A program made the position numbers and the translations under genes. The notes under the pieces were generated by a model. It saw only the letters and a list, made by a program, of their open reading frames with translations, ran no database searches and had not been told where the DNA came from. Below, one piece after another: positions 1,179-63,440 of a DNA stretch of 64,000 nt. Position 1 is the first letter of the stretch. Every line of letters begins with the position of its first letter. This stretch comes from Mustelus asterias (lineage: Eukaryota), in assembly GCF_964213995.1 (NCBI RefSeq), contig NC_135811.1, forward strand, positions 77,562,001 through 77,626,000, given 5' to 3'.

Positions 1179-1310
1179 CATTTGATTGAGTTTGCTGAGT
1201 GTGTGTTTGTTGAGTACTTGCTGTAACTGCAGCCTCTCGCAGCCCAGACTGAGGGTCCCGGTCAAGAAGAGCGACACCATCCAAAATCTCCAAATCCTCG
1301 CCAAAGCCAT
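1179..1310 (-). CDS. IFN1: Distal first exon (signal peptide + N-terminus) of a type I IFN copy whose body lies left of the window
   Basis: ATG at 1310; 44 codons MALARIWRFWMVSLFLTGTLSLGCERLQLQQVLNKHTLSKLNQM, then phase-0 GTGAGT donor. Confidence 0.75.
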
Positions 1311-12713: not shown

Positions 12714-15700
12714 TCACTTTCTTCTCCTGATTTGTGCCATTACGGAAGTCATCTGTTGTAATCGGGCCCTGGTCTCAGTGCGGATTATTTCCCAGGCACA
12801 TTGACTGAATTCCTGAAAAAGAAAATTATTCAGGAAAATGGATTAAAGAATGAATAGATTCCAAGAGGGTGAATTAATGTACATGCCAATAACCACACAG
12901 TCAATCATCAATGGTCCTACCTCCTGATTGAGGAACTTTTCCAGTTTCCTGAAGTAATTGTGAATGGTGAAGTTTCTCCTCATCTTGTGCTCTGACTCCT
13001 GTTTCCTGACACATTCTTCCAGCTCACTGAGCTGCCGATCCAGGATCAGTCGGAAATGTTCCACCTTGTCTCGGGCCCATGTGACTGAGCCCAGATTCAT
13101 GCTGTAGATCTTATTGATGTGTCGCAGAGTTTGATGGACAATCTGGATCCTGTCCTGTGTCTATACAAAATATACACAATGTAATTAGAGAGACTCCATT
13201 CCCCATAAGGGATCGTATGATATAGGCCACAAACAAATAAGGCTAAAAATGTTCAAATGGAAAATGTTCACCTTCAGCGTCTATGTGTATTGGAATCCCC
13301 ACATGGCAGGTTGGTTAAGAAGGTTAAGGCTCATGGGATAGAAGGAGAAGTGGCTAGATGGGTGGAGAACTGGCTTGGCCATAGGAGACAGAGGGTAGTG
13401 GTCGAAGGGTCTTTTTCCGCCTGGAGGTCTGTGACCAGTGGTGTTCCGCAGGGCTCTGTACTGGGACCTCTGCTATTTGTGATATAAATGATTTGGAAGA
13501 AGGTGTAACTGGTGAAATCAGCAAGTTTGCGGATGGCACAAAGATGGCTGGACTTGCGGATAGCGAAGAGCATTGTCGGGCAATACAGCAGGATATAGAT
13601 AGGCTGGAAAATTGGGCGGAGAGGTGGCAGATGGAGTTTAATCCGGATAAATGCGAAGTGATGCATTTTGGAAGAAATAATGTAGGGAGGATTTATACAA
13701 TAAATGGCAGATTCATCAGGAGTATAGAAACACAGAGGGACCTAGGTGTGCAAGTCCACAAATCCTTGAAGGTGGCAACACAGGTGGAGAAGGTCGTGAA
13801 GAAGGCAGGTGGTATGGTTGCCTTTATAGACTATAAAAGCTGGAGTCTGATGATGCAGCTGTATAGAATGCTGGTTAGGCCACATTTGGACTACTGCGTC
13901 CAGTTCTGGTCGCCGCACTACCAGAAGGACGTGGAGGCGTTAGAGAGAGTGCAGAGAAGGTTTACGAGGATGTTGCCTGGTATGGAGGGTCTTAGCTATG
14001 AGGAGAGATTGGGTAAACTGGGGTTGTTCTCCCTGGAAAGACGGAGAATGAGGGGCAATCTAATAGAGGTGTACAAGATTATGAAGGGGATAGATAGGGT
14101 GAACGGTGGGAAGCTTTTTCCCAGAGCAGAAGTGACGTTCACGACTGGTCACGGGCTCAAGGTGAGAGGGGCGAAGTATAACTCAGGTATTAGAGGGATG
14201 TTTTTAACACAGAGGGTGGTGGGGGCCTGGAATGCGCTGCCAAGTAGGGTGGTGGAGGCAGGCACGCTGACATCGTTTAAGACTTACCTGGATAATCACA
14301 TGAGCAGCCTGGGAATGGAGGGATATAAACGATTGGTCTAGTTGGACCAAGGAGCGGCACAGGCTTGGAGGGCCGAAGGGCCTGTTTCCTGTGCTGTACT
14401 GTTCTTTGTTCTTTAACTCAAAGATTGCTATTTCTTTCTTCATGGAATGTAAACATCACCGGCAAAGCCAGAATTTGTTGCTCATCCCTAATTGTATTTG
14501 ACATGAATATTACAGGTAATATTTAAGAGTCAACCACATGATTGTGGGTTTGCAGTCACTTGTAGGCCAGACCGAGTAAGGACAGCTGGTTTTCTTTCCT
14601 TGAAGGTTATTAATGAACCACATGGATCTTTACAACAACCTATGACAGTCCCATTGCTGGGAATAGCTATATTTGCAGATTTATGAATTGGGCATGAATT
14701 TGATTGGCTGCCCTGGTGGAAATTGAACTAAAGTACCCAGAGCATAACACTAGGCCTCGGGATTATTAGTCCAGTGGCATGAGCACTGTGCCACTATTAC
14801 CTCCTAAATATTATTGGGTCAATAATAATTGCAAATAAGCAATGGGAGTTTTAAAAGTGGAGATGTGTTGGATATAAATTGGGTTCCTTTCGATGAAGCA
14901 GAGAAGCCAGAGGCCATCCGATTTACAATAAAAATTAGACTCTTTGTTCAGTATAGAACCAAGCTGAATGCAGACCATATAAACCAAAATTACGAAAAGA
15001 AATGAGGGGTGAATACGGTGCATGAGAATTAATGAGAGGTATCGTGAAGGGGAAGCTAAAAATGGGTCATAAGAATATAAAGAATGTGGAGATGCTGCTT
15101 TTGGACTGGGGAGGAGAAGAGTCCAAGACGTCAATTTCAAATCAATGATTTGAACTTGGCTTCAGTTCAGAAGGAGATGCTTCAAATGTTACAGTAAAGG
15201 AAGAAGTAGTAAAGAAATTGGATGGGATAAAAATCGATAAAAAGGGGGTATCACTGTGGCCGTGCAACTGGGAATGTTGCTGCTTGTCCTCAATGCACCT
15301 GTCAAAAGTCCAGGATCAAAGAGGGACGACATTTCTAAGGTGAGTAAGACTTGGATGGAAGTGCTGGAGAGGTGAGGATTGTCAGAGATATGGGAACATG
15401 TCAGAAGCATAAGGTTGTTGTTCTTCCATCACATCTTGCACTGCACCAGATGCCGGTCATTTGACCAGTCCAGTACTGCCTTTGAATGAAAGACACACTC
15501 ACAACTCCTCCTGACCCCACCTACAATACTAGCAACCTGGAAGCAAACCGACAAGGTGACTTTCTGGATTCCCACTTGCTGAATCCCCTGATTCCGACTG
15601 GTTGTGTAAAGTTGTCAGTGGGGATGAGGCCCTTATGTGGGCATTAAATCTATGTCTCCCAGACCGTCTAACATCAGTTAATGGGAACAGTTTTCCCTTG

Positions 15701-16614
15701 ACTACCTTTCGGAAACAGCCATAATTCTGAAATATTCTGCACGAAGGCTGTATCCCAAAGGTGTAATGTACATTGTTAACGCTAAGGATATTTCAATTCC
15801 ATTGAGTCACATAAGAGTCACATAAGAGTGGGACATGCTGCATGGAGGCATGTTGAATTTCATTGCACTTTCTATAATTTTGAAGTTGAAATGTTTTGTA
15901 ATGCTCTTCCGCAAATGTTATGAATAATTCATATTTTTGGGGTGAAAGTTAGTGATCAGAAGAATGAAAGTGTAAGGGGCAGGGAGATACAGAAAATAAA
16001 ATAGTTCGCGGATATCTGATCATTAGAGCAAGCGGGCTTATTGGAGAAGAAGGAATGGTTAGAGAGACCGACATAATTTCAGGGGGTTCGAGACACAGAG
16101 ATAGTAAGTGCGCTCACAGTGATATTACTGAGTGAGTTAGATACAGAGTGAAATACAATGACAGAGAATTCTGTCATTGTCACAATGGTTGGAAATCACA
16201 CGATTGAAAATTCTTGCAGTTGCCAGTTCCGATCAGATTGTTGATGTAATTTTCTATAAAAACTCTGTCTAAAAGAAATGAACCGAGATTTTACTCACCT
16301 CTAATCCCTTCGAAAGTTTCACCAGGTCCAAGGGCTTGGATTTCAGGAAGTGTCTCTGTTTTATACAGTGTTGGGGAAAGGAGCCACCCTGAGAGGAGAA
16401 AAAATATAATTAATTATAAATCCCCAGAAATGTCTCCTGATTTGACATTTCACACGCTGCTCAGAATGCAGCTTTAACTCACCATTTGATTGAGTTTGCT
16501 GAGTGTGTGTGTGTTGAGAACTTGCTGTAACTGCAGCCTCTCGCAGCCCAGACTGAGGGTCCCGGACAAGAAGAGCGACACCATCCAACATCTCCAAATC
16601 CTCGACAAAGCCAT
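12714..16614 (-). CDS. IFN1: Type I interferon, locus A, intact 4-exon gene (186 aa)
   Basis: Exons 16614-16483 (MALSRIW..SLG/CERLQ..NQM), 16388-16299 (GGSFPQHCIKQ..GLE), 13160-12921 (TQDRIQ..LEEC..YFRKLEKFLNQE), 12812-12714 (EFSQCAWEIIR..RRRK*); all GT-AG phase-0 introns; four Cys. Confidence 0.93.
13298..14417 (+). mobile_element. 5'-truncated CR1-clade (HER1-like) LINE in intron 2 of locus A
   Basis: RT motifs SGVPQGSVLGPLLF, KFADGTK, LVRPHLDYCVQFWSP; (GTTCTTT)n tail; absent at this site in other units. Confidence 0.93.
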
Positions 16615-16794
16615 GACCGACCGAGCCAGAGTGAAACCCCGGACTGAGGATAAGACACCGATCGGGTCCGGGTTCAACTCAGACCAACAATTATTTTCAA
16701 ACGAATGAAAATCTAATAGTTCCGCTTCTCAGCCCCGAGTGAACGGCTGAACTGTTCAGTTCTCTTTCCGTGCGCTTGTCTCTCTCTCTGTGTA

Positions 16795-16995
16795 TCCGTG
16801 TATATATGTAGACTGTGCTGGGAGGAACTGTCCCTGCCATGCTGTCGCAGGGGCTGGCGGTTACATTTAAAAAGTGAAATCTGGTAGCGGGAGTTTTGGA
16901 AGTTCTTCAGGAGACGAATAGTTAGTCTGCTCCCTGTCTGAGGTAAGGAATCGGAAAGCCGGAGATTCCGGAACCAGGGACTGGAAGATCCCCGA
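16795..16995 (-). promoter_or_regulatory. Proximal IFN promoter (locus A; repeated in B-F)
   Basis: TATATA at 16801-16806, AAAAGTGAAA IRF-E at ~16870, NF-kB consensus GGGATCTTCC (minus) at 16983-16992, GGAGATTCC at 16961. Confidence 0.6.
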
Positions 16996-18190
16996 TAGAA
17001 AAATCACGAATAGCGCTGGGTTCCAGCTCAAAGTTCCAACAATCTGGATCAATATTATTAATATCCATTTTGTAAAAACAGATTATTGCCTGCAAAGTGA
17101 TTGGATTCACATTAAGGGGACAAGAAAAGTTGCGGTTCCTCAGATTGTTGGATTTTGAGGCTGTTCTTCTTGAGTTCGCTGCCCGAATGCGGGCCCAACC
17201 CATTTTCCCACAAGAGCAGCATAAGGTGATCATTACATTCAGAAATGACACTTAATGTGCCCGTGACACAGGTAAACTCTCCCTCCTCCTTGTCGCTCTG
17301 ACCGCAGCCTTTGACATGGGCGAGCAGACCCTCATCATTCAACTCTCTCCCCCACGGTGCAACTGATTGGGAGCCCTCTCTCTGTCTCTCATTCTTACTG
17401 AAGTCATTGTACCCTGAAAATACTCAGAATCGCATCTTCTCCCCCGCCCCCCACACTCCACCACGCACCCCACCTTTCAGCCTCTGCTGTCCATGAGGAT
17501 CTCTCCCTGCTCCCTTTTCTAATTCTCATCTCCAAGCTGCCCCATGGGGACATCACTCACCATTTACCCATCACCCCTGTGCTGGTTGAATTATGTTGGC
17601 TCCTGCTTCAGGAATGCCTTGATTTTAAAAATCTCACCCTCATTTTCAAACTCCGCCAGTCCCTCATCCCTCCCTATCTCTGTAATCACCTCCAGCCGCG
17701 AATCCCGACGAGATATCTGCTCTGCTCCAATTCTGGCCCCTCCAGAAATCCCCATTTTAATTCACCCACCATGGGTGGGGTCTCTTCAGCTGCTCAACCC
17801 TCAACCTCTGTAATTTCTGCCCTAAACCTCTCCGCCCCTCGTTACTCCATTAAAACGCTCCTTAAAATCAACTTCATTCATCAAGTTATTGCTCACCTGC
17901 CTCAGTCTCTCCTCGTCCGTCTGGCTATCCAATGTTTCTGGATAACACGCCTGTAAATCACTTTGACCCATCAATCTCTCTCTATAATGATGAGTGCTTG
18001 TTACTGATGGGCTGTCTCTGATTTCCCCCCTCTCAGGCTCACATTCCCCTTTATCCTTCACTCAGTCTCCTTCTCCTCAATTTCTGCTTTCTATTTCTCT
18101 CTCAGATCAGAGTTGCTCCTTCAAACAGATTCAGATTCAATCTCTCCCGGTCCCTCTCTCCCCTCAATATCATTCCCAGTTTCAACTCAC

Positions 18191-18322
18191 CATTTGATTG
18201 AGTTTGCTGAGTGTGTGTGTGTTGAGAACTTGCTGTAACTGCAGCCTCTCGCAGCCCAGACTGAGGGTCCCGGACAAGAAGAGCGACACCATCCAAAATC
18301 TCCAAATCCTCGCCAAAGCCAT
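18191..18322 (-). CDS. IFN1: Distal duplicate first exon, locus A
   Basis: ATG, 44 open codons, Cys24 kept, GTGAGT donor in phase with exon 2. Confidence 0.75.
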
Positions 18323-19120
18323 GACCAACCGGGTCAGAGGGAAAGCCCGATGTGGAAGAGGAGAAACCGGCGGCTTTGGTGGTTCAGCGGCGAGAACGGT
18401 TCTTGCGAAGAGAATTCAAGTCGGGAAGTGGAATTGGAGCCGCTTGTGATCCGGGAGCGAGCGCCTGTGTTGCCGAATGGTGTGAGTGTGGATTCTGCTG
18501 CGAGCTGGCACTGGCACTGCCAGGCTGCCCGCTTTAATGTGCGCCCATTACATTGCAAAAGTGAAAATGGGCTGCAGGGGTTTTGGGAGAGCTGCGGGAG
18601 ATCAATAGTTTGTGCGGTTTCTGTGTGAGGTCAGGAATGGGAAAGCTGGAGACTCCCGAAGCAGCGAGTGAGAAATCCCCGGGAGAAAATCACAAGCAGC
18701 GCTCGGTTGCAGCTCAGTGTTGTGTAGGCTTCACATCACCCGGGGGGGCACTAAGGTGCTACAGAGGTGGGCTCTGTATTGGGAGGCAGTGTGGACATGG
18801 ATTGGGGGCTGCATTTGACCATCCGGATTATAGAGACACCGAGAGAGGCGTCTTTTAGTTGCGGGCATTCGGCCCCATTCCCTCTGATAGCCCCGCTGTG
18901 TTCACATCGCGTTTGTCCTGTTCACACTTCCCAGCTTGAACATTGCAGAGAGACCGGCTCAGAGCCCAGGCTCGCCGCTTAATGGAGACTGACTCCGCTC
19001 CCATTGAGCTGCCCCACAATCTGCTCTTTAACTGCAAGAAGTTGCTCATTTCTCGCTTCTTTTCTGCAGCCATTTCCAGACTCTGACTGAGAGAATATTG
19101 AATCTGTTCCGATTCTGAGT

Positions 19121-19260
19121 GGGAAAGTGATCCCGCTCCCTTTCCTTTCGCCCCGTTTGTTTCTCCTCTCTGTCCCGGGAAAGTGTCCGCCTCACTTTCT
19201 CTCTGGAAATGAGCCTTGTGTCAGTTTGTGCCGAAAGCGAAAGTGCCTCAGGGAAAGTGA
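19121..19260. promoter_or_regulatory. IRF/ISRE cluster, locus A
   Basis: Five GAAAGTG including GAAAGCGAAAGTG at 19233-19245. Confidence 0.65.
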
Positions 19261-19384
19261 GGCGTTTTGTCATTTCCGACAGTGGGGAGAGTTTGTGAAG
19301 AGAGCGGCTCACACTGAGAGGGCTGAGGGGAGGGGCTGCCAAGGGGGTTCTGATTTTCGTATTTATCCCCGCTTTCAACAGGCA

Positions 19385-20396: not shown

Positions 20397-21066
20397 GTAA
20401 GAAGTTTAACAACACCAGGTTAAAGTCCAAAAGGTTTATATGGTAGCAAAAGCCACAAGCTTTTGGAGCCTTAAGCCCCTTCCTCAGGTGAGTGGGAATT
20501 CTGTTCACAAACAGGGCATATAAAGACACAAACTCAATTTACAGAATAGTGGTTGGAATGCGAATACTTACAGCTAATCAAGTCTTTAAGATACAAACAA
20601 TGTGAGTGGAGAGAGCATCAAGACAGGCTAAAGTTATGTGTATTGTCTCCAGACCGGACAGCCAGTGAGACTCTGCAGGTCCAGGCAAGCTGTGGGGATT
20701 ACAGATAGTGTGACATGAACCCAATGTCCCGGTTGAGGCCGTCCTCATGTGTGCGGAATTTGGCTATCAGTTACTGCTCAGCAACTCTGCGCCGTCGTGT
20801 GTCGTGAAGGCCGCCTTGGAGAACGCTTACCCAAATATCAGCGGCCGAATGCCCGTGACCGCTGAAGTGCTCCCCAACAGGAAGAGAACAGTCTTGCCTG
20901 GTGATTGTCGAGCGGTGTTCATTCATCCGTTGTCGCAGCGTCTGCATGGTTTCCCCAATGTACCATGCGTCGGGACATCCTTTCCTGCAGCGTATCAGGT
21001 AGACAAAGTTGGCCGAGTTGCATGAGTTTGTACTGTGCACCGGGTGGATGGTGTTCTCACGTGAGT
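20397..21066 (-). mobile_element. Penelope-like element 3' part (GIY-YIG endonuclease)
   Basis: ORF 20771-21040 VYLIRCRKGCPDAWYIGETMQTLRQRMNEHR..VGEHF; terminal sequence shared with 5790 and 63440. Confidence 0.92.
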
Positions 21067-26200: not shown

Positions 26201-26658
26201 AATGACAGAGAATTCTGCCATTGTCACAATGGGTGGAAATCACACGATTGAAAATTCTTGCAGTTGCCAGTTCCGATCAGATTGTTGATCTAACTTTCTA
26301 TAAAACCTCTGTCTAAATAAAATGAACCGAGATTTTACTCACCTCTAATCCCTTCGAAAGTTTCACCAGGTCCAAGGGCTTGGATTTCAGGAAGTGTCTC
26401 TGTTTTATACAGTGTTGGGGAAAGGAGCCACCCTGAGAGGAGAAAAAATATAATTAATTATAAATCCCCAGAAATGTCTCCTGATTTGACATTTCACACG
26501 CTGCTCAGAATGCAGCTTTAACTCACCATTTGATTGAGTTTGCTGAGTGTGTGTGTGTTGAGAACTTGCTGTAACTGCAGCCTCTCATAGCCCAGACTGA
26601 GGGTCCCGCACAAGAAGAGCGACACCATCCAGAATCTCCAAATACTCGCCAATGCCAT
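23281..26658 (-). CDS. IFN1: Type I interferon, locus B; open frame but Cys24>Tyr in the proximal exon 1
   Basis: Exons 26658-26527 (..SLGYERL..), 26432-26343, 23727-23488, 23379-23281 (KFSECAWEIIR..RRRN*); GT-AG phase 0. Confidence 0.9.
24478..25050 (+). mobile_element. CR1-clade LINE 3' fragment in intron 2 of locus B
   Basis: ORF 24478-24966 LYRTLVRPHLEYCVQFWSP..FFTQRVVGVWNGLP; (GTTCTAT)n tail; GTGTAT flanking repeat. Confidence 0.92.
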
Positions 26659-28242: not shown

Positions 28243-28374
28243 CATTTGATTGAGTTTGCTGAGTGTGTGTTTGTTGAGAACTTGCTGTAACTGCAGCCTC
28301 TCGCAGCCCAGACTGAGGGTACCGGACAAGAAGAGCGACACCATCCAAAATCTCCAAATCCTCGACAAAGCCAT
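28243..28374 (-). CDS. IFN1: Distal duplicate first exon, locus B (Cys24 retained)
   Basis: ATG, 44 codons, SLGCERL, GTGAGT donor. Confidence 0.75.
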
Positions 28375-35065: not shown

Positions 35066-37438
35066 CAATTGCATTGAGTCGCATAAGAGTGGGACATGCT
35101 GCATGGAGGCATGTTGAATTTCATCGCACTTTCTATGATTTTGAAGTTGAAATGTTTTGTAATACTCTTCCGCAAATGTTATCAAGAATTCATATTTTTG
35201 GGGTGAAATCTAGTGATCAGAAGAATGAAAGTGTAAGGGGCAGGGAGATACAGAATTTGAAGTAGTTCGCGGGCATCTGATCGTTAGAGCAAGCGGGCTT
35301 ATTGGAGAGGAAGGAATGGTTAGAGAGACCGATATAATTTCAGGGGGTTCGAGATAGAGAGATAGTAAGTGCGGTAACAGTGAAATTACTGAGTGAGTAA
35401 GATACAGAGTGAAATACAATGACAGGGAATTCTGCCATTGTCACAATGGGTGGAAATCAGTGATTGAAAATTCTTGCAGTTGCCAGTTCCGATCAGATTG
35501 TTGATCGAACTTTCCATAAAACCTCAGTCGAAATAAAATGAACCGAGATTTTACTCACCTCTAATCCCTTCGAAAGTTTCACCAGGTCCAAGGGCTTGGA
35601 TTTCAGGAAGTTTCTCTGTTTTATACAGTGTTGGGGAAAGGAGCCACTCTGAGAGGAGAAAAAATATAATTAATTATAAATCCCCAGAAATGTCCCCTGA
35701 TTTGACATTTCACACGCTGCTCAGAATGCAGCTTTAACTCACCATTTGATTGAGTTTGCTGAGTGTGTGTGCGTTGAGAACTTGCTGTAACTGCAGCCTC
35801 TCACAGCCCAGACTGAGGGTCCCGGACAAGAAGAACGACACCAAAATATCCAAATACTCGCCAATGCCATGACCGACCGAGTCAGAGTGAAACCCCCGAA
35901 CTGAGGATAAGACACCGGCCAAATCCGGGTTCAACTCCGAACAACAATTATTTTCAGACGAAAATCTAAATAGTTCCGCTTCTGACGCCCGAGTGAACGG
36001 CTGAACTGTTCAGTCCTCTTTCCGTGTGTCTGTCTGTCTCTCTCTCTGTGTATCTGTGTATATATGTGGACTGTGCTGGGAGGAACTGTCCCTGCTATGC
36101 TGTCGCAGGGACTGGCGATTACAATATTAAAGTGAAATCTGGTAGCGGGAGTTTTGGAAGTTCATCAGGAGACGAATAGTTAGTCCGCTCCTTTCTGAGG
36201 TAAGGAATCGGAAAGCTGGAGATTCCGGAACCAGGGACTGGAAGATCCCCGATGGAAAAATCACAAACAGCGCTCGGTTCCAGATCAAAGTTCCAACAAT
36301 CTGGATCAATATTAATAATATCCATTTTGTAAAAAACAGATTATTACCTTCAAGTTCATCGGATTCACATTAAGGGGACAATAAAGTTGCGGTTGGTCAG
36401 ATTGTTGGATTTTGATGCTGTTCTTGAGTTCTCGGCACGAATGCGGGCCCAACCCATTTTCCCACAAGAGCTCCATAAGGTTATTATTACATTCAGAAAT
36501 GACACTCAATGTGCCGTGACACAGGTAATCTCTCCCTCCTCCTTGACGCTCTGTCCGCAGCCTCTGACATGGGCAAGCAGACCCTCATCATTCAACTCTC
36601 TCCCCCACGGTGCAGCTGATTGGGAGAACTCTCTCTGCCTCTCATTCTTACTGAAGTCATTATACCCTGAAAATATTCAGAATCGCATCTTTTCTCCCCC
36701 ACACTCCTCCATGCACCCCACCTTTCAGTCTCTGCTGTCCATGAGGATCTCTCCCTGCTCCCTTTTCTAATTGTCATCTCCAGGCTGCCCCATGGGGACA
36801 TCACTCACCATTTACCCATCACCCCTGTGCTCGTTGAATTATGTTGGCTCCTACTTCAGGAATGTCTTGATTTTAAAAATCTCACTCTCATTTTCAAACT
36901 CCGCCAGTCCCTCATCCCTCCCTATCTCTGTAATAACGTCCAGCCGCGAAACCCGACGAGATATCTGCTCTGCTCCAATTCTGGCCCCTCGAGAATTCTC
37001 CATTTTAATTCACCCACCATGGGTGGTGTCTCTTCAGCTGCTCAACCCTCAACCCCTGTAATTTCTGCCCTAAACCTCTCCGGCTCCCTTTACCCCATTA
37101 AAACGCTCCTTAAAATCAACTTCATTCATCAAGTTATTGCTCACCTGCCTCAGTATCTCCTCGTCTGACTGACTATCCAATGTTTCTGTATAACACGCCT
37201 GTGAATCACGTTGAACCATAAATCTCTCTCTATAATGATGAGTGCTTGTTACTGATGGGCTGTCTCTGATTTCCCCCCTCTCAGGCTCACATTCCCCTTT
37301 ATCCTTCACTCAGTCCCCTTCTCCTCAATTTCTGCTTTCTATTTCTCTCTCAGATCAGAGTTGCTCCTTCAAACAGATTCAGATTCAACCTCTCCCGGTT
37401 CCTCTCTCCCCTCAATATCATTCCCAGTTTCAACTCAC

Positions 37439-37570
37439 CATTTGATTGAGTTTGCTGAGTGTGTGTTTGTTGAGAACTTGCTGTAACTGCAGCCTCTCGC
37501 AGCCCAGACTGAGGGTGCCGGACAAGAAGAGCGACACGATCCAAAATCTCCAAATCCTCGCCAAAGCCAT
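37439..37570 (-). CDS. IFN1: Distal duplicate first exon, locus C (intact)
   Basis: MALARIWRFWIVSLFLSGTLSLGCERLQLQQVLNKHTLSKLNQM plus GTGAGT donor. Confidence 0.75.
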
Positions 37571-41505: not shown

Positions 41506-43830
41506 TCAGTTTCTTCTCCTGATTTGTGCCATTACGGAAGTCATCTGTTGTAATCGGGCCCTGGTCTCAGTGCGGATTATTTCCCAGGCACATTCACTGA
41601 ATTTCTGAAAAAGAAAATTATTCAGGAAAATGGATTACAGAATGAATAGATTCCAAGAGGGTGAATTAATGTACATGCCAATAACCACACAGTCAATCAT
41701 CAATGGTCCTACCTCCTGATTGAGGAACTTTTCCAGTTTCCTGAAGTAATTGTGAATGGTGAAGTTTCTCCTCATCTTGTGCTCTGACTCTTGTTTCCTG
41801 ACACATTCTTCCAGCTCACTGAGCTGCCGATCCAGGATCAGCCGGAAAAGTTCCACCTTGTCTCGGGCCCATGTGACTGAGCCCAGATTCATGCTGTAGA
41901 TCTTGTTGATGTGTCGCAGAGTTTGATAGACAATCTGGGTCCTGTCCTGTGTCTATACAAAATATACACAATGTCATGAGAGAGATAACATTCCCCATAA
42001 GGCATAGTATGATATAGGCCATAAACAAATAAGGCTAAAAATGTTCAAATGGAAAAGGATTGCTATTTCTTCCTTCATGGGATGTGGACATCACTGGCAA
42101 AGCCAGAATTTGTTGCTCATCCCTAATTGTATTTGACATAAATATTTCAGGGGACATTTAAGAGTCAACCACATGATTATGGGTTTGCAGTCACTTGTAG
42201 GCCAGACCGAGTAAGGACAGCAAGTTTTCTTTCCTTAAAGGTCATGAATGGACCAGATGGATCTCGACAACAATCTATGACAGTCCCATTGCTGAGATTA
42301 GCTGTATTTCCAGATTTATGAATTGAGCATGAATTCGACTGGCTGCCCTGGTGGAAATTGAACTAAAGTTCCCAGAGCATAACACTAGGCCTCGGGGCTA
42401 TTAGTCCAGTGGCATGAGCACTGTGCCACTATTACATCCTAAATATTATTGGGTCAATAATAATTGCAAATAAGCAATGGGAGTTTTAAAAATTGGAGAT
42501 GATTTGGATACAAACTGGGCTCCTTTCAACGAAACAGAGAGGCCAGAGGTCATCCAATTTACAATAAAATTTAGACTCTTTGTTCAGTATAGAACCAAGC
42601 TGAATGCAGACCATATACACCAAAATTATGAAAAGAAATGAGGCGTGAATATGGTACAGGAGAATTAATGCCAGGTATCATAAAAGGGAAGCTAAAAATG
42701 GGTCAGAAGAATATAAAGAATGTGGAGATACCGGTATTGGACGAGGGAGGAGAAGATACGAGTCCAATATGTTTATTTGAAAACAGTAACTTGAATTTGG
42801 CTTCAGTTCAGAAGGAGATGCTTCAAATGTTACAGTAAAGGGAGAAGTAGTAAAGAAATTGGATGGGATAAAAATTGATAAAAAGGGGGTATCACTGTGG
42901 CGGTGCAACTGGGAATGTTAATGGGTTAATGGGAACCGTTTTCCCTTGACTGCCTTTCGGAAACAGCCATAATCCTGAAATATTCTGCACTCAGGCTGTT
43001 TCCCAAACATGTATTGTACATTGTTAACGCAAGGGATATTTCAATTCCATTGAGTCACAGTGGGACACGCTGCATGGAGGCACGTTGAATTTCATTGCAC
43101 TTTCTATAATTTTGAAGTTGAAATGTTTTGTAATGCTCTTCCGCAAATGTTATGAATAATTCATATTTTTGGGGTGAGAGTTAGTGATCAGAAGAATGAA
43201 AGTGTAAGGGGCAGGGAGATACAGAAAATAAAATAGTTCGCGGGCATCTGATCATTCGAGCAAGAGGGCTTATTGGAGAGGAAGGAATGGTTAGAGAGAC
43301 CGATATAATTTCAGGGGGTTCGAGATAGGGAGATAGTAAGTGCGGTAACAGTGAAATTACTGAGTGAGTTGATACAGAGTGAAATACAATGACAGAGAAT
43401 TCTGTCATTGTCGCAATGGGTGAAAATCCTGACCGTTGCCAGTTCCGATCAGATTGTTGATCGAACTTTCTATGAAACCTGTGTCTAAATAAAATGAACC
43501 GAGATTTTACTCACTTCTAATCCCTTCGAAAGCTTCACCAGGTCCAAGGGCTTGGACTTCAGGAAGTGTCTCTGTTTTATACAGTGTTGGGGAAAGGAGC
43601 CACCCTGAGAGGAGAAAAAATATACTTAATTATAAATCCCCAGAAATGTCCCCTGATTTGACATTTCACATGCTGCTCAGAATGCAGCTTTAACTCACCA
43701 TTTGATTGAGTTTGCTGAGTGTGTGTGTGTTGAGAACTTGCTGTAACTGCAGCCTCTCACAGCCCAGACTGAGGGTCCCGGACAAGAAGAGCGACACCAT
43801 CCAAAATATCCAAATACTCGCCAAAGCCAT
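41506..43830 (-). CDS. IFN1: Type I interferon, locus D, intact 4-exon gene (186 aa)
   Basis: Exons 43830-43699, 43604-43515, 41952-41713, 41604-41506; GT-AG phase 0; four Cys; CAWEIIR. Confidence 0.93.
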
Positions 43831-45407: not shown

Positions 45408-45539
45408 CATTTGATTGAGTTTGCTGAGTGTGTGTTTGTTGAGAACTTGCTGTAACTGCAGCCTCTCGCAGCCCAGACTGAGGGTCCCGGTCAAGAAGAG
45501 CGACACCATCCAAAATCTCCAAATCCTCGCCAAAGCCAT
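45408..45539 (-). CDS. IFN1: Distal duplicate first exon, locus D
   Basis: ATG, 44 codons, GTGAGT donor. Confidence 0.75.
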
Positions 45540-51864: not shown

Positions 51865-54609
51865 CCAGATGCCGGTCACTTGACCAGTCCAGTACTGCCT
51901 TTGAATGAGAGACATACCCACAACTCCTCCTGACTCCACCTACAATGTTAGCAACCTGGAAGCAAACCGACAAGGTGACTTTCTCGATTCCCACTTGCTG
52001 AATCCCCTGATTCCTACTGGTTGTGTAAAGCTGTCAGTGAGGCTGAGGCCCTTATATGGGAATTAAATCTGTGTCTCCCAGACCGTCTAACATCAGTAAA
52101 TGGGAACAGTTTTCCCTTGACAGCCTTTCGGAAACAGCCATAATCCTGAGATATTCTGCACTCAGACTGTATCCCAAACATATCATGTACATTGTTAACG
52201 CGAAGGATATTTCAATTGCATTGAGTCGCATCAGAGTGGGACATGCTGCATGGAGGCATGTTGAATTTCATCGCACTTTCTATGATTTTGAAGTTGAAAT
52301 GATTTGTAATGCTATTCCGCAAATGTTATCAAGAATTCATATTTTTGGGGTGAAATCTAGTGATCAGAAGAATGAAAGTGTAAGGGGCAGGGAGATACAG
52401 AATTTGAAGTAGTTCGCGGGCATCTGATCGTTAGAGCAAGCGGGCTTATTGGAGAGGAAGGAATGGTTAGAGAGACCGATATAATTTCAGGGGGTTCGAG
52501 ATAGAGAGATAGTAAGTGCGGTAACAGTGAAATTACTGAGTGAGTAAGATACAGAGTGAAATACAATGACAGGGAATTCTGCCATTGTCACAATGGGTGG
52601 AAATCAGTGATTGAAAATTCTTGCCGTTGCCAGTTCCGATCAGATTGATGATCGAACTTTCTATAAAACCTGTGTCGAAATAAAATGAACCGAGATTTTA
52701 CTCATCTCTAATCCCTTCGTAAGTTTCACCAGGTCCAAGGGCTTGGATTTCAGGAAGTGTCTCTGTTTTATGCAGTGTTGGGGAAAGGAGCCACCCTGAG
52801 AGGAGAAAAAATATAATTAATTATAAATCCCCAGAAATGTCCCCTGATTTGACATTTCACACGCTGCTCAGAATGCAGCTTTAACTCACCATTTGATTGA
52901 GTTTGCTGAGTGTGTGTGTTGAGAACTTGCTGTAACTGCAGCCTCTCACAGCCCAGACTGAGGGTCCCGCACAAGAAGAGCGACACCATCCAAAATCTCC
53001 AAATACTCGCCAATGTCATGACCGACCGAGTCAGAGTGAAACCCCCGAACTGAGGATAAGATACCGGCCGGATCCGGCTTCAACTCCGAACAATTATTTT
53101 CAAACGAATGAAAATCTAAATAGTTCCGCTTCTGAACCCCGAGTGAACCGCTGAGCCGTTCAGTTCTCTTTCCGTGTGTCTGTCTCTCTCTCTCTCTGTA
53201 TCCGTGTATATATGTGGACTGTGCTGGGAGGGACTGTCCCTGCCATGCTGTCTCAGCGGCTGGTGATTACATTGGAAAAGTGAAATCTGGTAGCGGGAGT
53301 TTTGGAAGTTCTTTAGGAGAGGAATATTTAATCTGCTCCCTGTCTGAGGTAAGGAATCGGAAAGCTGGAGTTTCCGGAACCAGGGACTGGAAGATCCCCG
53401 AGAGAAAACTCACAAACAGTGCTCGGTTCCAGCTCAAAGTTCCAACAATCGGAATCAAGATTATTAATATCCATTTTGTAAAAACAGATTATTGCCTTTA
53501 AATTGATCGGATTCACATTACGGGGACAAGAAAAATTGCGGTTGGTCAGATTGTTGGAGTTTGAGGCTGTTCTTCTTGAGTTCGCTGCCCGAAGGCGGGC
53601 CCAACCCATTTTCCCACAAGAGCTCCATAAGGTGATTATTACATTCAGAAATGACACTCAATGTGCCCGTGACACAGGTAATCTCTCCCTCCTCCTTGTC
53701 GCTCTGTCCGCAGCCTTTGACATGGGCGCGCAGACCCTCATCATTCAACTCTCTCCCCCACGGTGCAACTGATGGGGAGCACTCTCTGAGCCTCTCATTC
53801 TTACTGAAGTCATTGTCCCCTGAGAATATCCAGAATCGCATCCTTTCTCCCCCACACTCCACCACGCACCTCACCTTTCAGCCTCTGCTGTCCATGAGGA
53901 TCTCTCCCTGCTCCCTTTTCTAATTCTCATCTCCAAGCTGCCCCATGGGGACATCACTCACCATTTACCCATCACCCCTGTGCTGGTTGAATTATGTTGG
54001 CTCCTGCTTCAGGAATGCCTTGATTTTAAAAATCTCACCCTCATTTTCAAACTCCGCCAGTCCCTCAGCCCTCCCTATCTCTGTAATCACCTCCAGCCGC
54101 GAATCCCTACGAGATATCTGCTCTGCTCCAATTCATTCCCCACGCGCCCCCCCCCCCCCCCCACAATTCCCCATTTTAATTCACCCACCATGGGCGGTGT
54201 CTCTTCAGCTGCTCAACCCTCAACCTCTGTAATTTCTGCCCTAAATCTCTACGCCCCTCTTTTCCCCATTAAAACGCTCCTTAAAATCAACTTCATTCAT
54301 CAAGTTATTGCTCACCTGCCTCAGTATCTCCTCGTCTGACTGACTATCCAATGTTTCTGGATAACACGCCTGTGAATCACTTTGAACCATCAATCTCTCT
54401 CTATAATGATGAGTGCTTGTTACTGATGGGCTGTCTCTGATTTCTCCTCTCTCAGGCTCACATTCCCCTTTATCCTTCACTCAGTCCCCTTCTCCACAAT
54501 TTCTGCTTTCTATTTCTCTCTCAGATCAGAGTTGCTCCTTCAAACAGATTCAGATTCAATCTCTCCCGGTCCCTCTCTCCCCTCAATATCATTCCCAGTT
54601 TCAACTCAC

Positions 54610-54741
54610 CATTTGATTGAGTTTGCTGAGTGTGTGTTTGTTGAGAACTTGCTGTAACTGCAGCCTCTCGCAGCCCAGACTGAGGGTCCCGGTCAAGAAG
54701 AGCGACACCATCCAAAATCTCCAAATCCTCGCCAAAGCCAT
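54610..54741 (-). CDS. IFN1: Distal duplicate first exon, locus E (intact)
   Basis: ATG, 44 codons, GTGAGT donor. Confidence 0.7.
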
Positions 54742-58723: not shown

Positions 58724-61492
58724 TCAGTTTCTTCTCCTGGTTTGTGCCATTACGGAAGTCATCTGTTGTAATCGGGCCCTGGTCTCAGTGCGGATTATTT
58801 CCCAGGCACATTCACTGAATTTCTGAAAAAGAAAATTATTCAGGAAAATGGATTACAGAATGAATAGATTCCAAAGGGGTGAACTAATGTACATGCCAAT
58901 AACCACACAGTCAATCATCAACAGTCCTACCTCCTGATTGAGAAACTTTTCCAGTTTCCTGAAGTAATTGTGAATGGTGAAGTTTCTCCTCATCTTGTCT
59001 CTGACTCCTGTTTCCTGACACATTCTTCCAGCTCACTGAGCTGCCGATCCAGGATCAGCCGGAAATGTTCCACCTTGTCTCGGGCCCATGTGACTGAGCC
59101 CAGATTCATGCTGTAGATCTTGTTGATGTGTCACAGAGTTTGATGGACAATCTGGATCCTGTCCTGTGTCTATACAAAATATATACAATGCCATTAGAGA
59201 GATTCCATTCCGCATAAGGCACAGTATGATATAGGCCATAAACAAATAAGGCTAAAAATGTTCAAATGGAAAATGTTCACCTTCAGCGACTTAAAACGGG
59301 ATCAGGTCTATGTGTACTGGAATCAAACATTGCTACTTCTTCCTTCATGGGATGTGGGCATCACTGGCAAAGCCAGAACTTGTTGCTCATCCCTAATTGT
59401 ATTTGACATGAATATTTCAGGTGACATTTAAGAGTCAACCACATGACTGTGGGTTTGCAGTCACTTGTAGGCCAGACCGAGTAAGGACAGCAGGTTTTCT
59501 TTCCTTAAAGGTCATTAATGAACCACATGGATCTTTACAACAATCTATGACACTCCCATTGCTGGGATTAGCTGTATTTCCAGATTTATGAATTGAGCAT
59601 GAATTCGACTGGCTGCCCTGGTGGAAATTGAACTAAAGTTCCCAGAGCATAACACTAGGCCTCGGGATTATTAGTCCAGTGGCATGAGCACTGTGCCACT
59701 GTTACCTCCTAAATATTATTGGGTCAATAATTATTGCAAATAAGCAATGGGAGCTTTGAAAAGTGGAGATGTTTTGGATACAAACTGGGCTCCTTATGAT
59801 GAAGCAGAGAGGCCAGAGGCCATCTGATTTACAATAAAAATTAGACTCTTTGTTCAGTATAGAACATATACGCCAAAATTATCAAAAGAAATGAGGGGTA
59901 AATACGGTGCATGAGAATTAATGAGAGGTATCGTAACGAGGAATCTAAAAATGGGTCATAAGTATCTAAAGAATGTGGAGGTGGCGGTGTTGGATTCGGG
60001 GGAAGAAGATCAGGGTCCAAGACGTTTATTTGAAATCAGTAATTTGGATTTGGCTTCAGTTCAGAAGGAGATGCTTCAAATGTTACCGCAAAGGGAGAAG
60101 TAGTAAAGAAATTGGATGGGGTAAAAATCGATTACAAAAGGGGCATCACTGTTGCCGTGCAAATGGGAATGTTGCTGCTTGTCCTCAATGCACCTGTCAA
60201 AAGTCCAGGATCACAGAGGGATGACATTTCTAAGGTGAGTAAGACCAAGATGGAAGTCCTGGAGAGGTGAGGATTGTAGGAGATCTGGGAACATGGTCAG
60301 AAGCATAAGGTTGTTGTTCTTCCATCACATCCTGCACTGCACCAGATGCTGGGTCACTTGACCAGTCCAGTACTGTCTTTGAATGAGAGACATACCCACA
60401 ACTCCTCCTGACCCCACCTACAATACTAGCAACCTGGAAGCAAACCGACAAGATGACTTTCTGGATTCCCACTTGCTGAATCCCCTGATTCCTACTGGTT
60501 GTGTAAAGTTGTCAGTGGGGATGAGGCCCTTATATGGACATTAAATTTGTGTCTCCCAGACCGTCTAACATCAGTTAATGGGAACAGTTTTCCGTTGACT
60601 GCCTTTCGGAAACAGCCATTATCCTGAAATTTTATGCACTCAGGCTGTATCCCAAACATGTAATGTACATTGTTAACGCTAGGGATGTTTCAATTCCATT
60701 GACTCACATAAGAGTGGGACATGCTGCATGGAGGCATGTTGAATTGAAGGCATTGCACCTTCTATAATTTTGAAGTTGAAATGTTTTGTAATGCTCTTCC
60801 GCGAATGATATGAATAATTTACATTTTTGGGGTGAAAGTTAGTGATCAGAAGAATGAAACTGTAAGGGACAGAAAATAAAATAATTCGCGGGCATCTGAT
60901 CATTCCAGCAAGCGGGCTTATTGGAGAGGAAGGAATGGTTAGAGATACGGATATAATTTCAAGGGGTTCGAGATGGAGAGTTAGTAAGTGCGGTAACAGT
61001 GAAATTAGTTAATGAGTTAGATACAGAGTGAAATACAATGACAGGGAATTCTGCCATTGTCACAATGGGTGGAAATCACACGATTGAAAATTCTTGCAGT
61101 TGCCAGTTCCGATCAGATTGTTGATCTAACTTTCTATAAAACCTGTCTAAATAAAATGAACCGAGATTTTACTCACCTCTAATCCCTTCGAAAGTTTCAC
61201 CAGATTTAAGGGCTTGGATTTCAGGAAGTGTCTCTGTTTTATACAGTGTTGGGGAAAGGAGCCACCCTGAGAGGAGAAAAAATATAATTAATTATAAATC
61301 CCCAGAAATGTCTCACGATTTTACATTTCACACGCTGCTCAGAATACAGCTTTAACTCACCATTTGATTGAGTTTGCTGAGTGTGTGTGTGTTGAGAACT
61401 TGCTGTAACTGCAGCCTCTCACAGCCCAGACTGAGGGTCCCGGACAAGAAGAGCGACACCATCCAAAATCTCCAAATACTCGCCAATGCCAT
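58724..61492 (-). pseudogene. IFN1: Type I interferon, locus F, pseudogene
   Basis: Exons 61492-61361, 61266-61177, 59169-58931, 58822-58724; exon 3 has CGA>TGA at 59131-59133 and a 1-bp deletion near 58998. Confidence 0.9.
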
Positions 61493-62885
61493 GACCGACC
61501 GAGTCAGAGTGAAACCCCGAACTGAGGATAAGACACCGACCGGATCCGGGTTCAACTCCGAACAACAATTATTTTCAAACGAATGAAAATCTAAATAGTT
61601 CCGCTTCTAAACCCTGAGTGAACGGCTGAACTGTTCAGTTCTCTTTCTGCGTGTCTGTCTGTCTCTCTCTCTGTGTATCCGTGTATATATGTGGACTGTG
61701 CTGGGAGGAACTGTCCCTGCTATGCTGTCTCAGGGGCTGGCGATTACATTTAAAAAGTGAAATCTGGTAGCGGGAGTTTTGGAAGTTCTTCAGGAGACGA
61801 ATAGTTAGTCTGCTCCCTGTCTGAGGTAAGGAATCTGAAAGCTGGAGATTCCGGAACCAGGGACTGGAAGGTCCTCGATAGAAAAATCACAAACAGCGCT
61901 CGGTTCCAGATCAAAGTTCCAACAATCTGGATCAATATTATTAATATCCATTTTGTAAAAGCAGATTATTGCCTTCAAATTGGATTCACATTAAGGGGAC
62001 AATAAAGTTGCGGTTGGTCAGATTGTTGGATGTTGAGGCTGTTCTTGAGTTCTCTGCCCGAATGCGGGCCCAACCCATTTTCCCACAAGAGCTCCATAAG
62101 ATGATTATTACATTCAGAAATGACACTCAATGTGCCCGTGACACAGGTAAACTCTCCCTCCTCCTTGTCGCTCTGCCCGCAGCCTTTGACATGGGCGAGC
62201 AGACCCTCTTCATTCAACTCTCTCCCCCACGGTGCAGCTGATTGGGAGCCCTCTCTCTGTTTCTCATTCTTACTGAAGTCATTGTACCCTGAGAATATTC
62301 AGAATCGCATCTCCCCGCCCCCCCCCCCCCACCCCCACACTCCACCACGCACCCCATCTATCAGCCTCTGCTGTCTGTGAGGATCTCTCCCTGCTCCCTT
62401 TTCTAATTCTCATCTCCCAGCTGCCCCATGGGGACATCACTCACCATTTACCCATCACCCCTGTGATCGTTGAATTATGTTGGCTCCTGAGCCAGTTTCG
62501 TGTGGGCCCAGTTTTCAGTGTAATTGTTTCGCAAAAAGGCTTACATCCATGTGACACCCTCAGTGGTCACAGAATATCTCAAGCATTTCACAGCTGATGG
62601 AGTGCCTTTGAGGTTCATTGTCTGTTGTAATATAGGAAACACATGAGCCAATTTGTGCTTCATACTCCCACAAACAGCACTCTGATAACGAACAGAGAAC
62701 CTGGTTTCATGATATTGATTGTGGGTAATTATCAGGTTGGCAATCCGGAATTAGTGGATTGCTCCTCCTTCTTGTGTTCTTTTGTAATGCAATCATTATT
62801 TAACATGCAGATTTCCAGAAGGTGTAAACCATGATACCACATGATAAATTTTCATCCTCACGTTCCATGTATTCTTTTTCCTTTT

Positions 62886-63440
62886 CGCAGACGCTGCGAC
62901 AACGGATGAATGAACACCGCTCGACAACCACCAGGCAAGACTGTTCTCTTCCTGTTGGGGAGCACTTCAGCGGTCACGGGCATTCGGCCTCTGATATTCG
63001 GGTAAGCGTTTTCCAAGGCGGCCTTCACGACACACGACAGCTCAGAGTCGCTGAGCAGAAACTGATAGCCAAGTTCCGCACACACGAGGACGGCCTCAGC
63101 CGGGATATTGGGTTCATGTTACACTATTTGTAACTCCCACAGGTTGCCTGGACCTGCAAAGTTTCACTGGCTGTCTTGTCTGGAGACAATACACATCTTT
63201 TGAGCCCTTCTTGATGCTCTCTCCACTCACGTTCTTTGTATCTTAAAGACTTGATTAGTTGTAAGTATTCACATTCCAACCACTATTCATGTAAATTGAG
63301 TCTGTGTCTTTATATGCCCTGTTTGTGAACATAATTCCCACTCACCTGAAGAAGGGGCTTGGAGCTCCGAAAGCTTGTGTGGCTTTTGCTACCAAATAAA
63401 CCTGTTGGACTTTAACCTGGCATTGTTAAACTTCTTACTG
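62886..63440 (+). mobile_element. Penelope-like element 3' fragment
   Basis: QTLRQRMNEHRS..VGEHFSGHGHS..AEQKLIAKFRTHEDGLSRD (GIY-YIG C-part); terminus ..GTTAAACTTCTTACTG. Confidence 0.9.

What the first reader, a model, noticed from the sequence alone, without database searches (positions are those of the whole stretch)
16299..19260. Every IFN unit has two interchangeable signal-peptide first exons behind two different promoters
Seen: ~1.7 kb upstream of the normal exon 1 lies a second 132-bp copy with its own ATG, 44 open codons and phase-0 GTGAGT donor (1179, 18191, 28243, 37439, 45408, 54610). Homology stops ~10 nt into the intron and ~25 nt upstream of the ATG, and no second exon 2 follows it. 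The proximal copy has TATA + one IRF-E + kB. The distal copy has a CpG-rich region with no clear TATA, an IRF-E, a kB-like site and the five-motif IRF cluster. All six distal copies are intact. Established: alternative first exons in zebrafish and trout IFNs yield non-secreted forms. Here both would give essentially the same secreted protein. Inference: a dual-promoter IFN design (e.g. primary versus feedback, or cell-type specific) built by exon duplication. I am not aware of it being described.
Basis: partly seen in the sequence, partly recalled or inferred. Interest (0 to 1): 0.88.

Follow-up and report, generated by a model that had tools for sequence, protein, structure and literature searches.

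The report
Twin first exons in shark interferons
Most genes in this shark interferon array carry their promoter and first exon twice; the far copy is strongly conserved and likely the one mainly used, while the near copy is broken in several genes and is likely kept similar only by gene conversion.

Summary
The doubled first exon is real. It lies in a 13-unit, minus-strand array of four-exon type I interferon genes of a houndshark. All 12 distal copies are intact. One unit has no distal copy. Homology continues about 530 nt upstream at 26% divergence, so a whole promoter-plus-exon module was duplicated. The 'normal' proximal copy is the weaker one: 3 of 13 are frameshifted, and an older paralog has lost it. 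Across 9 units the distal promoter varies as little as coding exons (0.015-0.019); the proximal promoter varies like introns (0.077-0.083). Distal-type upstream DNA is recognisable in catshark and epaulette shark gene models. The two exons differ by only 4.6% with no fixed difference, which points to gene conversion, so intact copies alone do not prove use. Best reading: the distal module is the main promoter and first exon; the proximal one is an old, relaxed duplicate. No RNA data could be obtained, so use of either exon is untested. Skate transcripts with a signal-less first exon hint at a secreted/intracellular pair. Not found in nine literature searches.

The parts
19090..19340 (-). IRF-motif cluster upstream of the distal promoter (unit u7)
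   Evidence: 6 GAAAG[CT] sites vs 0.73 expected; between-unit diversity 0.015
18871..19095 (-). Conserved non-coding block, with a donor-like GTCAGT near 18991; possible upstream non-coding exon
   Evidence: Translated frames match N-termini of catshark P0017 (22/34) and epaulette shark P0087 (27/60); the donor-like site is seen in 10 of 12 distal modules by an anchored search
18760..18889 (-). Variable spacer between the two conserved blocks (internal control)
   Evidence: 26 of 130 columns vary, vs 32 of 437 and 27 of 441 in the flanking blocks
18323..18759 (-). Distal proximal-promoter and 5'UTR: kB-like sites at 18679 and 18657, IRF-E at 18566, no TATATA
   Evidence: diversity 0.018-0.019; paralogous to 16615-17060
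18191..18322 (-). Distal exon 1 of u7 (signal peptide plus 21 residues), donor GTGAGT
   Evidence: used by RefSeq model P0033
17061..18190 (-). Intron between distal exon and proximal promoter; no exon-2 copy; holds a high-copy repeat near 17594-17714
16615..17060 (-). Proximal promoter and 5'UTR: kB 16992, IRF-E 16879, TATATA 16806, acceptor-like site 29 nt before the ATG
   Evidence: diversity 0.077-0.083, like introns
16483..16614 (-). Proximal exon 1 of u7; differs from the distal exon at 2 of 132 nt
16299..16388 (-). Exon 2 of u7 (90 nt), 94 nt behind the proximal donor
12921..13160 (-). Exon 3 of u7 (240 nt)
12714..12812 (-). Exon 4 of u7 (32 codons and stop)
1179..1310 (-). Distal exon 1 of u6, intact (the rest of the gene lies left of the window)
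26527..26658 (-). Proximal exon 1 of u8, C24Y (first conserved cysteine lost)
28243..28374 (-). Distal exon 1 of u8, intact
35743..35870 (-). Proximal exon 1 of u9, 4-nt deletion (frameshift); gene body intact
37439..37570 (-). Distal exon 1 of u9, intact; the only in-frame first exon of this gene
43699..43830 (-). Proximal exon 1 of u10, intact
45408..45539 (-). Distal exon 1 of u10, intact
52890..53019 (-). Proximal exon 1 of u11, 2-nt deletion in the CA run; exon-2 donor and exon-3 acceptor of this unit are also broken
54610..54741 (-). Distal exon 1 of u11, intact although the gene body has broken splice sites
58724..62489 (-). Unit u12: distal module absent (junction near 62490), proximal exon 61361-61492 intact, exon 3 with a stop and a 1-nt deletion

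Best explanation
These shark type I interferon genes carry an old tandem duplicate of their promoter-plus-first-exon module; the distal module is likely the main virus-inducible promoter and first exon, predicted to splice across the proximal copy to exon 2, while the proximal module is likely a relaxed duplicate whose exon is kept similar by gene conversion. SHOWN: two paralogous modules, one shared gene body, 26% promoter divergence against 4.6% exon divergence, exon-level conservation of the distal promoter, intron-level variation of the proximal promoter, a crossover product between the two exons, and genes whose only in-frame first exon is the distal one. INFERRED: IRF/NF-kB-driven transcription from the distal promoter; splicing 18191 to 16388 giving a 186-aa secreted interferon; conversion and unequal crossover as the cause of exon identity and of the array; at most minor use of the proximal promoter; origin before the split of the two interferon subtypes (A and B) that sharks share.
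For: Diversity across 9 units (u3-u11): distal promoter 0.015-0.019, distal exon 0.020, exons 3 and 4 0.018-0.020; proximal promoter 0.077-0.083, long introns 0.060-0.093. Variable columns 32 of 437 (distal) vs 105 of 446 (proximal), Fisher 1.7e-11; proximal vs intron p 0.12-0.15. The distal promoter is the less diverged in 36 of 36 unit pairs. A variable spacer sits between two conserved distal blocks, as block-wise selection predicts. Distal-type upstream DNA is recognisable in catshark and epaulette shark models, scores 84-100 against shuffle maxima 40-56. Distal exons intact 12 of 12; in the 10 units with intact bodies the proximal exon is null in 3 (u1 deleted, u9 and u13 frameshifted). 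The one unit without a distal module has a dead exon 3 beside an intact proximal exon. Strict kB site in 12 of 12 distal vs 8 of 13 proximal promoters (p 0.04). Conversion: 0 fixed differences in 132 exon nt vs 32 of 204 promoter columns; hybrid third exon in u2; exon 1 is more alike between subtypes within a lineage (0.86-0.93) than between lineages (0.81). Age: the B-type paralog u1 keeps a proximal core (75%) and a distal-intron homolog (67%), near its intron-3 identity of 71%.
Against: No transcript of either exon was seen. Counts of disabling lesions alone are not significant (frameshifts 0 of 12 vs 3 of 13, p 0.22; any indel p 0.10), and 2 of the 4 proximal indels lie in a CA run that most distal copies have interrupted, so mutation bias could explain them. 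Amino-acid to silent variant counts barely differ (8:4 distal, 14:5 proximal). Two units with broken exon-2 donors (u5, u11) still have intact distal exons. Units share history, so the Fisher values overstate independence, and conversion could also lower distal diversity (u1's distal promoter block is only 3.6% from the array's although its body is old). The proximal module keeps ATG and donor in 13 of 13, TATATA in 13 of 13, IRF-E in 12 of 13, and its 94-nt intron is conserved (0.019). A strong proximal donor 94 nt from the exon-2 acceptor should compete with distal splicing. RefSeq models pick the proximal exon in 4 of 12 genes.
Confidence: 0.55

Rival explanations
1. Both modules are used and regulated differently: a TATA-type proximal promoter and a TATA-less, IRF-rich distal promoter give the same secreted protein at different times or in different cells.
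For: TATATA 13 of 13, IRF-E 12 of 13, ATG and donor 13 of 13 in proximal copies; 9 of 13 proximal exons are full length and open; short intron conserved; the proximal module has persisted since the A/B split in the A-type lineage; teleost group I interferons use two start regions (PMC5127012, passages).
Against: The proximal promoter varies like introns and has no invariant run beyond chance (longest 16 nt, p 0.50); the strict kB site is lost in 5 of 13; the exon is frameshifted in 3 of 13 and deleted in u1.
Confidence: 0.25
2. The proximal module has another job: it yields a signal-less (intracellular) or non-productive transcript, or acts as a cassette exon that damps distal transcripts; the full proximal exon in this array is a by-product of conversion.
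For: In u1 the proximal exon is cut to three codons followed by a GC-type donor-like site in phase with exon 2. Sixteen fetched skate proteins have a signal-less first exon ending in WL(H/Q)RSW, which resembles the proximal 5'UTR read across the ATG (best score 36 vs 12 for distal; shuffle maxima 17-22); two of them are also in Logan assemblies, one on a 902-nt contig that must be spliced. An acceptor-like AG lies 29-30 nt before the proximal ATG in 13 of 13 copies.
Against: The skate match is short and its end lies in the tract shared by both modules (mean score 9.9 proximal vs 1.2 distal). The cassette length has no conserved frame (0, 1 or 2 modulo 3). The acceptor-like site is absent in u1. 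No skate DNA could be read.
Confidence: 0.13
3. The distal exon is inert: a leftover kept intact by conversion, while the conserved distal DNA works only as an enhancer for the proximal promoter.
For: Conversion is evident; distal exons stay intact in two units with damaged bodies; no TATATA in 12 of 12 distal promoters.
Against: u1, u9 and u13 have intact bodies and only a distal in-frame first exon; u1's B-type body has relatives in the other shark lineages compared; cross-species conservation reaches the bases next to the distal ATG (18369-18292).
Confidence: 0.07

Closest known systems
Teleost group I interferons with two start regions (salmon IFNa, zebrafish IFNphi1, trout secreted/intracellular IFN); PMC5127012 and PMC5332411, passages read
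   Same: Intron-containing type I interferon gene with two 5' regions feeding the same downstream exons; IRF and NF-kB motifs.
   Different: There the long form lacks a signal peptide and is poorly inducible (zebrafish). Here the upstream exon is a full paralog of the signal-peptide exon with its own duplicated promoter, it is the better conserved copy, and the protein has four cysteines.
Cartilaginous-fish four-exon type I interferons (PMC5332411, PMC6640115, passages)
   Same: Four exons, three phase-0 introns, 186 aa, PF00143, tandem arrays.
   Different: The passages read describe one first exon per gene; the second cluster in this genome (12 genes) also has one each.
Variable-first-exon clusters UGT1, GCNT2 and clustered protocadherins (PMC1885805, passages)
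   Same: Tandem paralogous first exons, each behind its own promoter, sharing constant exons; gene conversion among first exons in protocadherins.
   Different: Those have many first exons that diversify a protein domain. Here there are two (three in one unit), homogenised to near identity, inside each member of a tandem gene array.
Drosophila hydra, alternative first exons made by repeated exon-1 duplication (PMC1904467, search listing only)
   Same: First exons multiplied by local duplication.
   Different: A young testis gene of unknown family; only the listing was seen.

Membership tests
Cartilaginous-fish type I interferon | Interferon alpha/beta domain (PF00143) | tested here: met
   Precomputed for the RefSeq cluster representatives; member proteins match this array's exon translations
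Cartilaginous-fish type I interferon | Four exons, three phase-0 introns | tested here: met
   132, 90, 240 and 99 nt with AG/GT borders; structure stated in PMC5332411
Cartilaginous-fish type I interferon | Signal peptide and four conserved cysteines | tested here: met
   Hydrophobic core in all 22 in-frame copies scored (9-residue mean 1.8-2.5, hydropathy scale recalled), no dedicated predictor run; four cysteines in P0033
Cartilaginous-fish type I interferon | Virus-induced secretion, receptor signalling | not testable with these tools
   No expression or activity data
Cartilaginous-fish type I interferon | Linkage to growth hormone / CD79 locus | not tested
   Flanking genes were not annotated
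Teleost secreted/intracellular dual-start interferon | Upstream form lacks a signal peptide | tested here: not met
   Distal exon encodes a full signal peptide in 12 of 12 copies
Teleost secreted/intracellular dual-start interferon | Group I (two-cysteine) protein | tested here: not met
   Four cysteines
Teleost secreted/intracellular dual-start interferon | Two transcription starts used in vivo | not testable with these tools
   No RNA data for this species were reachable
Variable-first-exon gene (UGT1/Pcdh type) | Tandem paralogous first exons, each with its own promoter | tested here: met
Variable-first-exon gene (UGT1/Pcdh type) | One shared set of constant exons | tested here: met
   No exon-2 copy behind the distal exon
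Variable-first-exon gene (UGT1/Pcdh type) | Each first exon is spliced to the constant exons in transcripts | not testable with these tools
   RefSeq gives one model per gene, 8 distal and 4 proximal; their transcript support is unknown
Variable-first-exon gene (UGT1/Pcdh type) | First exons diversify the protein | tested here: not met
   No fixed difference between distal and proximal exons

The most novel reading that the evidence does not exclude
Sharks and rays have carried a two-module interferon 5' end for their whole history: the distal module makes secreted interferon, and the proximal module flips between a full signal exon (rewritten from the distal copy by gene conversion) and a truncated signal-less exon that makes intracellular interferon, as in skates and in paralog u1. 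That would be a second, independent origin of the secreted/intracellular interferon pair known from teleosts, with gene conversion as the switch.
Probability: 0.15. Interest if true: 0.8.

Novelty: new variant of a known kind. Interest (0 to 1): 0.52.

Why it matters
Shark interferon regulation is nearly unstudied. This locus says where to look: the conserved, IRF-rich promoter lies 1.7-5 kb further upstream than the exon nearest the gene body, so promoter assays and gene models built on the nearest exon would use the wrong copy (RefSeq already mixes the two, 8 distal and 4 proximal). It is a clean case of gene conversion confined to one exon, hiding an old duplication and blurring the signal of function. 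It also shows that exon 1 misleads interferon trees in sharks. If the skate hint holds, signal-less interferon is not a teleost speciality.

Tried and rejected
RNA search: no RNA holder listed; the four runs laid cover introns evenly and show no joint between exon ends, so they behave as DNA and say nothing on expression. They do hold both promoter types, long nearly invariant contigs over the distal promoter and short variant ones over the proximal promoter (one study, at most 3 samples, possibly the source of the assembly; no contig spans both exons). Search for a fifth exon between exons 2 and 3: none; the genes have four. Exon-2 remnant behind the distal exon (fusion-by-deletion origin): none found, which does not exclude that origin. 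CpG decay as a marker of promoter use: uninformative. Conserved islands in the proximal promoter: none beyond chance. In-frame tandem use of both exons: rejected as a conserved design, no constant frame. Homology of u13's own upstream IRF-rich stretch to the array's cluster: borderline (score 91, shuffle maximum 89). An apparent 'LRESP' match between the skate N-terminus and the distal promoter: rejected as chance; the skate match to distal upstream DNA (score 53, shuffle maximum 56) is proline-driven. Whale shark isoforms other than X1: not found. Bamboo shark isoforms X1-X4 start just before exon 2 and look like read-in from the intron; not used. Other shark genomes could not be searched as DNA. 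The salmon promoter paper (PubMed 16889635) is not held. Earlier findings of this scan: none.
Full report
SETTING. The window is G000:C11:77,562,001-77,626,000 of a 3.68-Gb genome. I fetched 190 kb to the left and 50 kb to the right. Coordinates outside 1-64000 are extended window coordinates (C11 position = 77,562,000 + x). The region holds a minus-strand array of 13 interferon units (u1 to u13 from left to right; u6-u12 touch the window), a plus-strand cluster of 12 more distant interferon genes, and two single divergent genes. RefSeq proteins named Mustelus asterias match the exon translations of the array letter for letter. The genes have four exons of 132, 90, 240 and 99 nt with phase-0 introns, the structure reported for cartilaginous-fish type I interferons (PMC5332411, passages).

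THE OBSERVATION. There are 25 close copies of exon 1: 12 distal (D) and 13 proximal (P). All 12 D copies are 132 nt, open, with ATG and GTGAGT. D lies 1693-1742 nt upstream of P in the 9 standard units. No exon-2 copy follows D. So the core observation holds. But u12 has no D: its distal intron is joined near 62490 to sequence from the end of the next unit. Of 13 P copies, 9 are full length, 3 are frameshifted (u9 -4 nt, u11 -2 nt, u13 -1 nt) and 1 has an in-frame 6-nt deletion (u4); one of the 9 has C24Y (u8).

WHAT WAS DUPLICATED. Homology between D and P does not stop 25 nt before the ATG. It runs about 530 nt upstream at 70-75% identity. The IRF-E and kB-like sites align at homologous positions. 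In a block anchored on the IRF-E, D-P divergence is 0.259 with 32 fixed differences in 204 columns; D-D is 0.027 and P-P 0.071 (P of u13 and u2a were left out for lack of the anchor, the u1 remnant was included). So the two promoters are old copies of one promoter. In the exon, D-P divergence is 0.046 (0.070 at third positions) with 0 fixed differences in 132 nt. In u7 the two exons differ at 2 nt and share alleles that elsewhere mark one type. Unit u2 has three copies; the middle one has a P promoter and a D intron, the product expected from a crossover inside exon 1. I infer gene conversion confined to the exon. The pattern is general in sharks: exon 1 is 0.86-0.93 identical between the A and B subtypes within a lineage but 0.81 between lineages, while exon 2 keeps the subtype difference (0.53-0.70) (2 of the 6 pairs join two genera of one order). 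Intact exons therefore do not prove use; u5 and u11 have broken exon-2 donors and intact D exons.

WHICH COPY IS UNDER SELECTION. I aligned the 9 standard units (u3-u11; u1, u2, u12 and u13 differ in layout and were left out). Mean pairwise diversity: IRF cluster 0.015, D promoter 0.018-0.019, D exon 0.020, exons 3 and 4 0.018 and 0.020; P promoter 0.077-0.083, P exon 0.038, exon 2 0.038, long introns 0.060-0.093, short introns 0.019 and 0.033. Variable columns: 32 of 437 in the D promoter, 105 of 446 in the P promoter (Fisher 1.7e-11); P promoter against introns p 0.12-0.15. The units share history, so these p values are too small, but the D promoter is the less diverged in 36 of 36 unit pairs. 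A 130-nt spacer between the two conserved D blocks varies like intron (26 of 130 columns), which fits selection on blocks better than one long conversion tract. The P promoter has no invariant run beyond chance (p 0.50), though it keeps TATATA in 13 of 13 and the IRF-E in 12 of 13; the strict kB site is in 12 of 12 D and 8 of 13 P. The IRF cluster is above chance (6 sites, 0.73 expected); single sites are not. Motif patterns are recalled consensus forms.

NATURAL KNOCK-OUTS. Ten units have intact exons 2-4 and splice sites. In all 10, D is intact. In 3 of them P is null: u9 and u13 by frameshift, and u1 by deletion, where only three codons remain before the homolog of the short intron. The one unit without D (u12) has an intact P and a stop plus frameshift in exon 3. 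The direction fits D as the needed exon. The counts are not significant by themselves (p 0.10-0.32), and 2 of the 4 P indels lie in a CA run that 10 of 12 D copies have interrupted. RefSeq models use D in 8 and P in 4 of 12 genes, one model per gene; whether transcripts support them is unknown.

AGE. u1 is a B-type gene: exon 2 is 66% identical to u7's in DNA, intron 3 71%, and A- and B-type proteins occur side by side in catsharks, lamniforms and carpet sharks. u1 keeps a P core at 75% and a homolog of the D intron at 67% over 549 nt. Part of that intron is a repeat, but its first 291 nt alone score 116 against at most 64 for unrelated windows. I infer that the D-P layout predates the A/B split. 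u1's D promoter and part of its P promoter are as close to the array as array copies are to each other, so exchange continues. The ends of the array fit an origin by unequal crossover in the D module between an A-type gene (u13) and a B-type gene (u1); this is inference.

OTHER SHARKS AND RAYS. Their DNA could not be searched, but some RefSeq models translate non-coding DNA. The 163-residue extension of epaulette shark P0087 matches four collinear blocks of D-type upstream DNA (19050-18871, 27/60; 18835-18797, 10/13; 18526-18428, 21/35; 18369-18292, 15/26; scores 60-100, shuffle maxima 43-56), then reads 11 codons of an exon-1 start out of frame, then exon 1 in frame. That is either two exon-1 copies in one model or a 34-nt micro-duplication; I cannot tell which. 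Catshark P0017 begins with the homolog of 19095-18994 (22/34, score 96, shuffle maximum 40) joined to a B-type exon 2. So D-type upstream DNA is conserved across shark orders. No equal test exists for P. Whale shark P0068 has three accessions for one protein named isoform X1, a hint of varied untranslated ends. Sixteen fetched skate proteins have a signal-less first exon ending in WL(H/Q)RSW. One comes from a 902-nt Logan contig that holds exons 2-4 in one frame and so is a spliced product; another is listed in both NCBI and Logan. The ending resembles the P 5'UTR read across the ATG (best score 36 for P, 12 for D; means 9.9 and 1.2). This is a hint, not a homology proof.

HOW IT MOST LIKELY WORKS. 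IRF and NF-kB factors would bind the IRF cluster and the D promoter; the transcript would start upstream of the D ATG and splice from 18191 to 16388, skipping P, to give a 186-aa secreted four-cysteine interferon. P would be used little or in some copies only. The P donor, 94 nt from the exon-2 acceptor, and an acceptor-like site 29-30 nt before the P ATG (13 of 13 copies, no constant frame) could divert some transcripts. None of these steps was observed. I give this 0.55; real two-promoter use 0.25; a signal-less or damping role for P 0.13; an inert D exon 0.07.

COMPARISON AND NOVELTY. It works like a two-member variable-first-exon gene (UGT1, protocadherins; PMC1885805, passages) but does not diversify the protein. 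It resembles teleost group I interferons with two start regions (PMC5127012, passages) but fails two defining features: the upstream form has a signal peptide and the protein has four cysteines. Nine searches of the held library listed no paper on duplicated first exons in shark interferons; I saw listings and abstract starts only, apart from the papers named. PMC6640115 holds neither 'exon' nor 'promoter' in its main text; a 2026 preprint on interferon origins (10.64898/2026.05.30.728932, passages) did not touch it. Supplements were not read and most subscription journals are not held, so absence from print is not proven.

VERDICT. A real, old and apparently undescribed layout; a new variant of a known kind. 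Interest 0.52, held down by the lack of RNA evidence and by the chance that the second module is only a relic.

Noticed in passing
Proteins P0114, P0126-P0139, P0106 (skates): Sixteen skate interferon sequences from three named species and one Logan contig have a signal-less first exon joined to exon 2 (one to exon 3); at least one is a spliced transcript. Possible intracellular interferon outside teleosts.
   Followed up: partly
L015:9786-9917, L016:1489-1620 and L016:3211-3342 (unit u2): Three exon-1 copies in one gene; the middle one is a hybrid with a proximal promoter and a distal intron.
   Followed up: yes
L014:7104-7400 and L015:2145-2276 (unit u1): B-type paralog whose proximal exon is deleted between two near-identical hexamers, leaving three codons and a GC-type donor-like site; the distal exon lies 4951 nt from exon 2.
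   Followed up: yes
L002-L011 (extended coordinates -172034 to -86694, plus strand): A second array of 12 compact interferon genes with one first exon each; their exon 3 is 86-89% identical in DNA to the minus-strand array while exons 1 and 2 are 39-53% identical in protein, suggesting exchange of exon 3 between clusters.
   Followed up: no
L002 (extended -178846 to -181495) and L012-L013 (extended -62982 to -71272): Two divergent interferon genes: one with a single exon 1 and an IRF-E 237 nt before the ATG, one apparently broken (stop in exon 2, frameshift in exon 3).
   Followed up: partly
L020:5890-6620 (upstream of u13): The 5'-most unit lacks the array's IRF cluster and has its own IRF-motif-rich stretch behind a SINE-like insertion; homology to the cluster is borderline.
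   Followed up: partly
L020-L023: A 13.6-kb tandem duplication at 99.8% identity right of the array repeats u13's upstream region; possibly an assembly artefact.
   Followed up: partly
window 52706 and L018-L019 boundary region (units u11, u5): The same exon-2 donor change (GT to AT) occurs in two units; RefSeq rescues both with a donor 15 nt downstream (189 and 191 aa).
   Followed up: no
Proteins P0006/P0064, P0007/P0016, P0021/P0024 and others: Exon 1 is homogenised between interferon subtypes within each shark lineage while exon 2 keeps the subtype signal; whole-protein trees of shark interferons will be distorted.
   Followed up: partly
window 20397-20945 and 62887-63438: Two inverted copies (92% identical) of a 550-nt retroelement-like fragment.
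   Followed up: no
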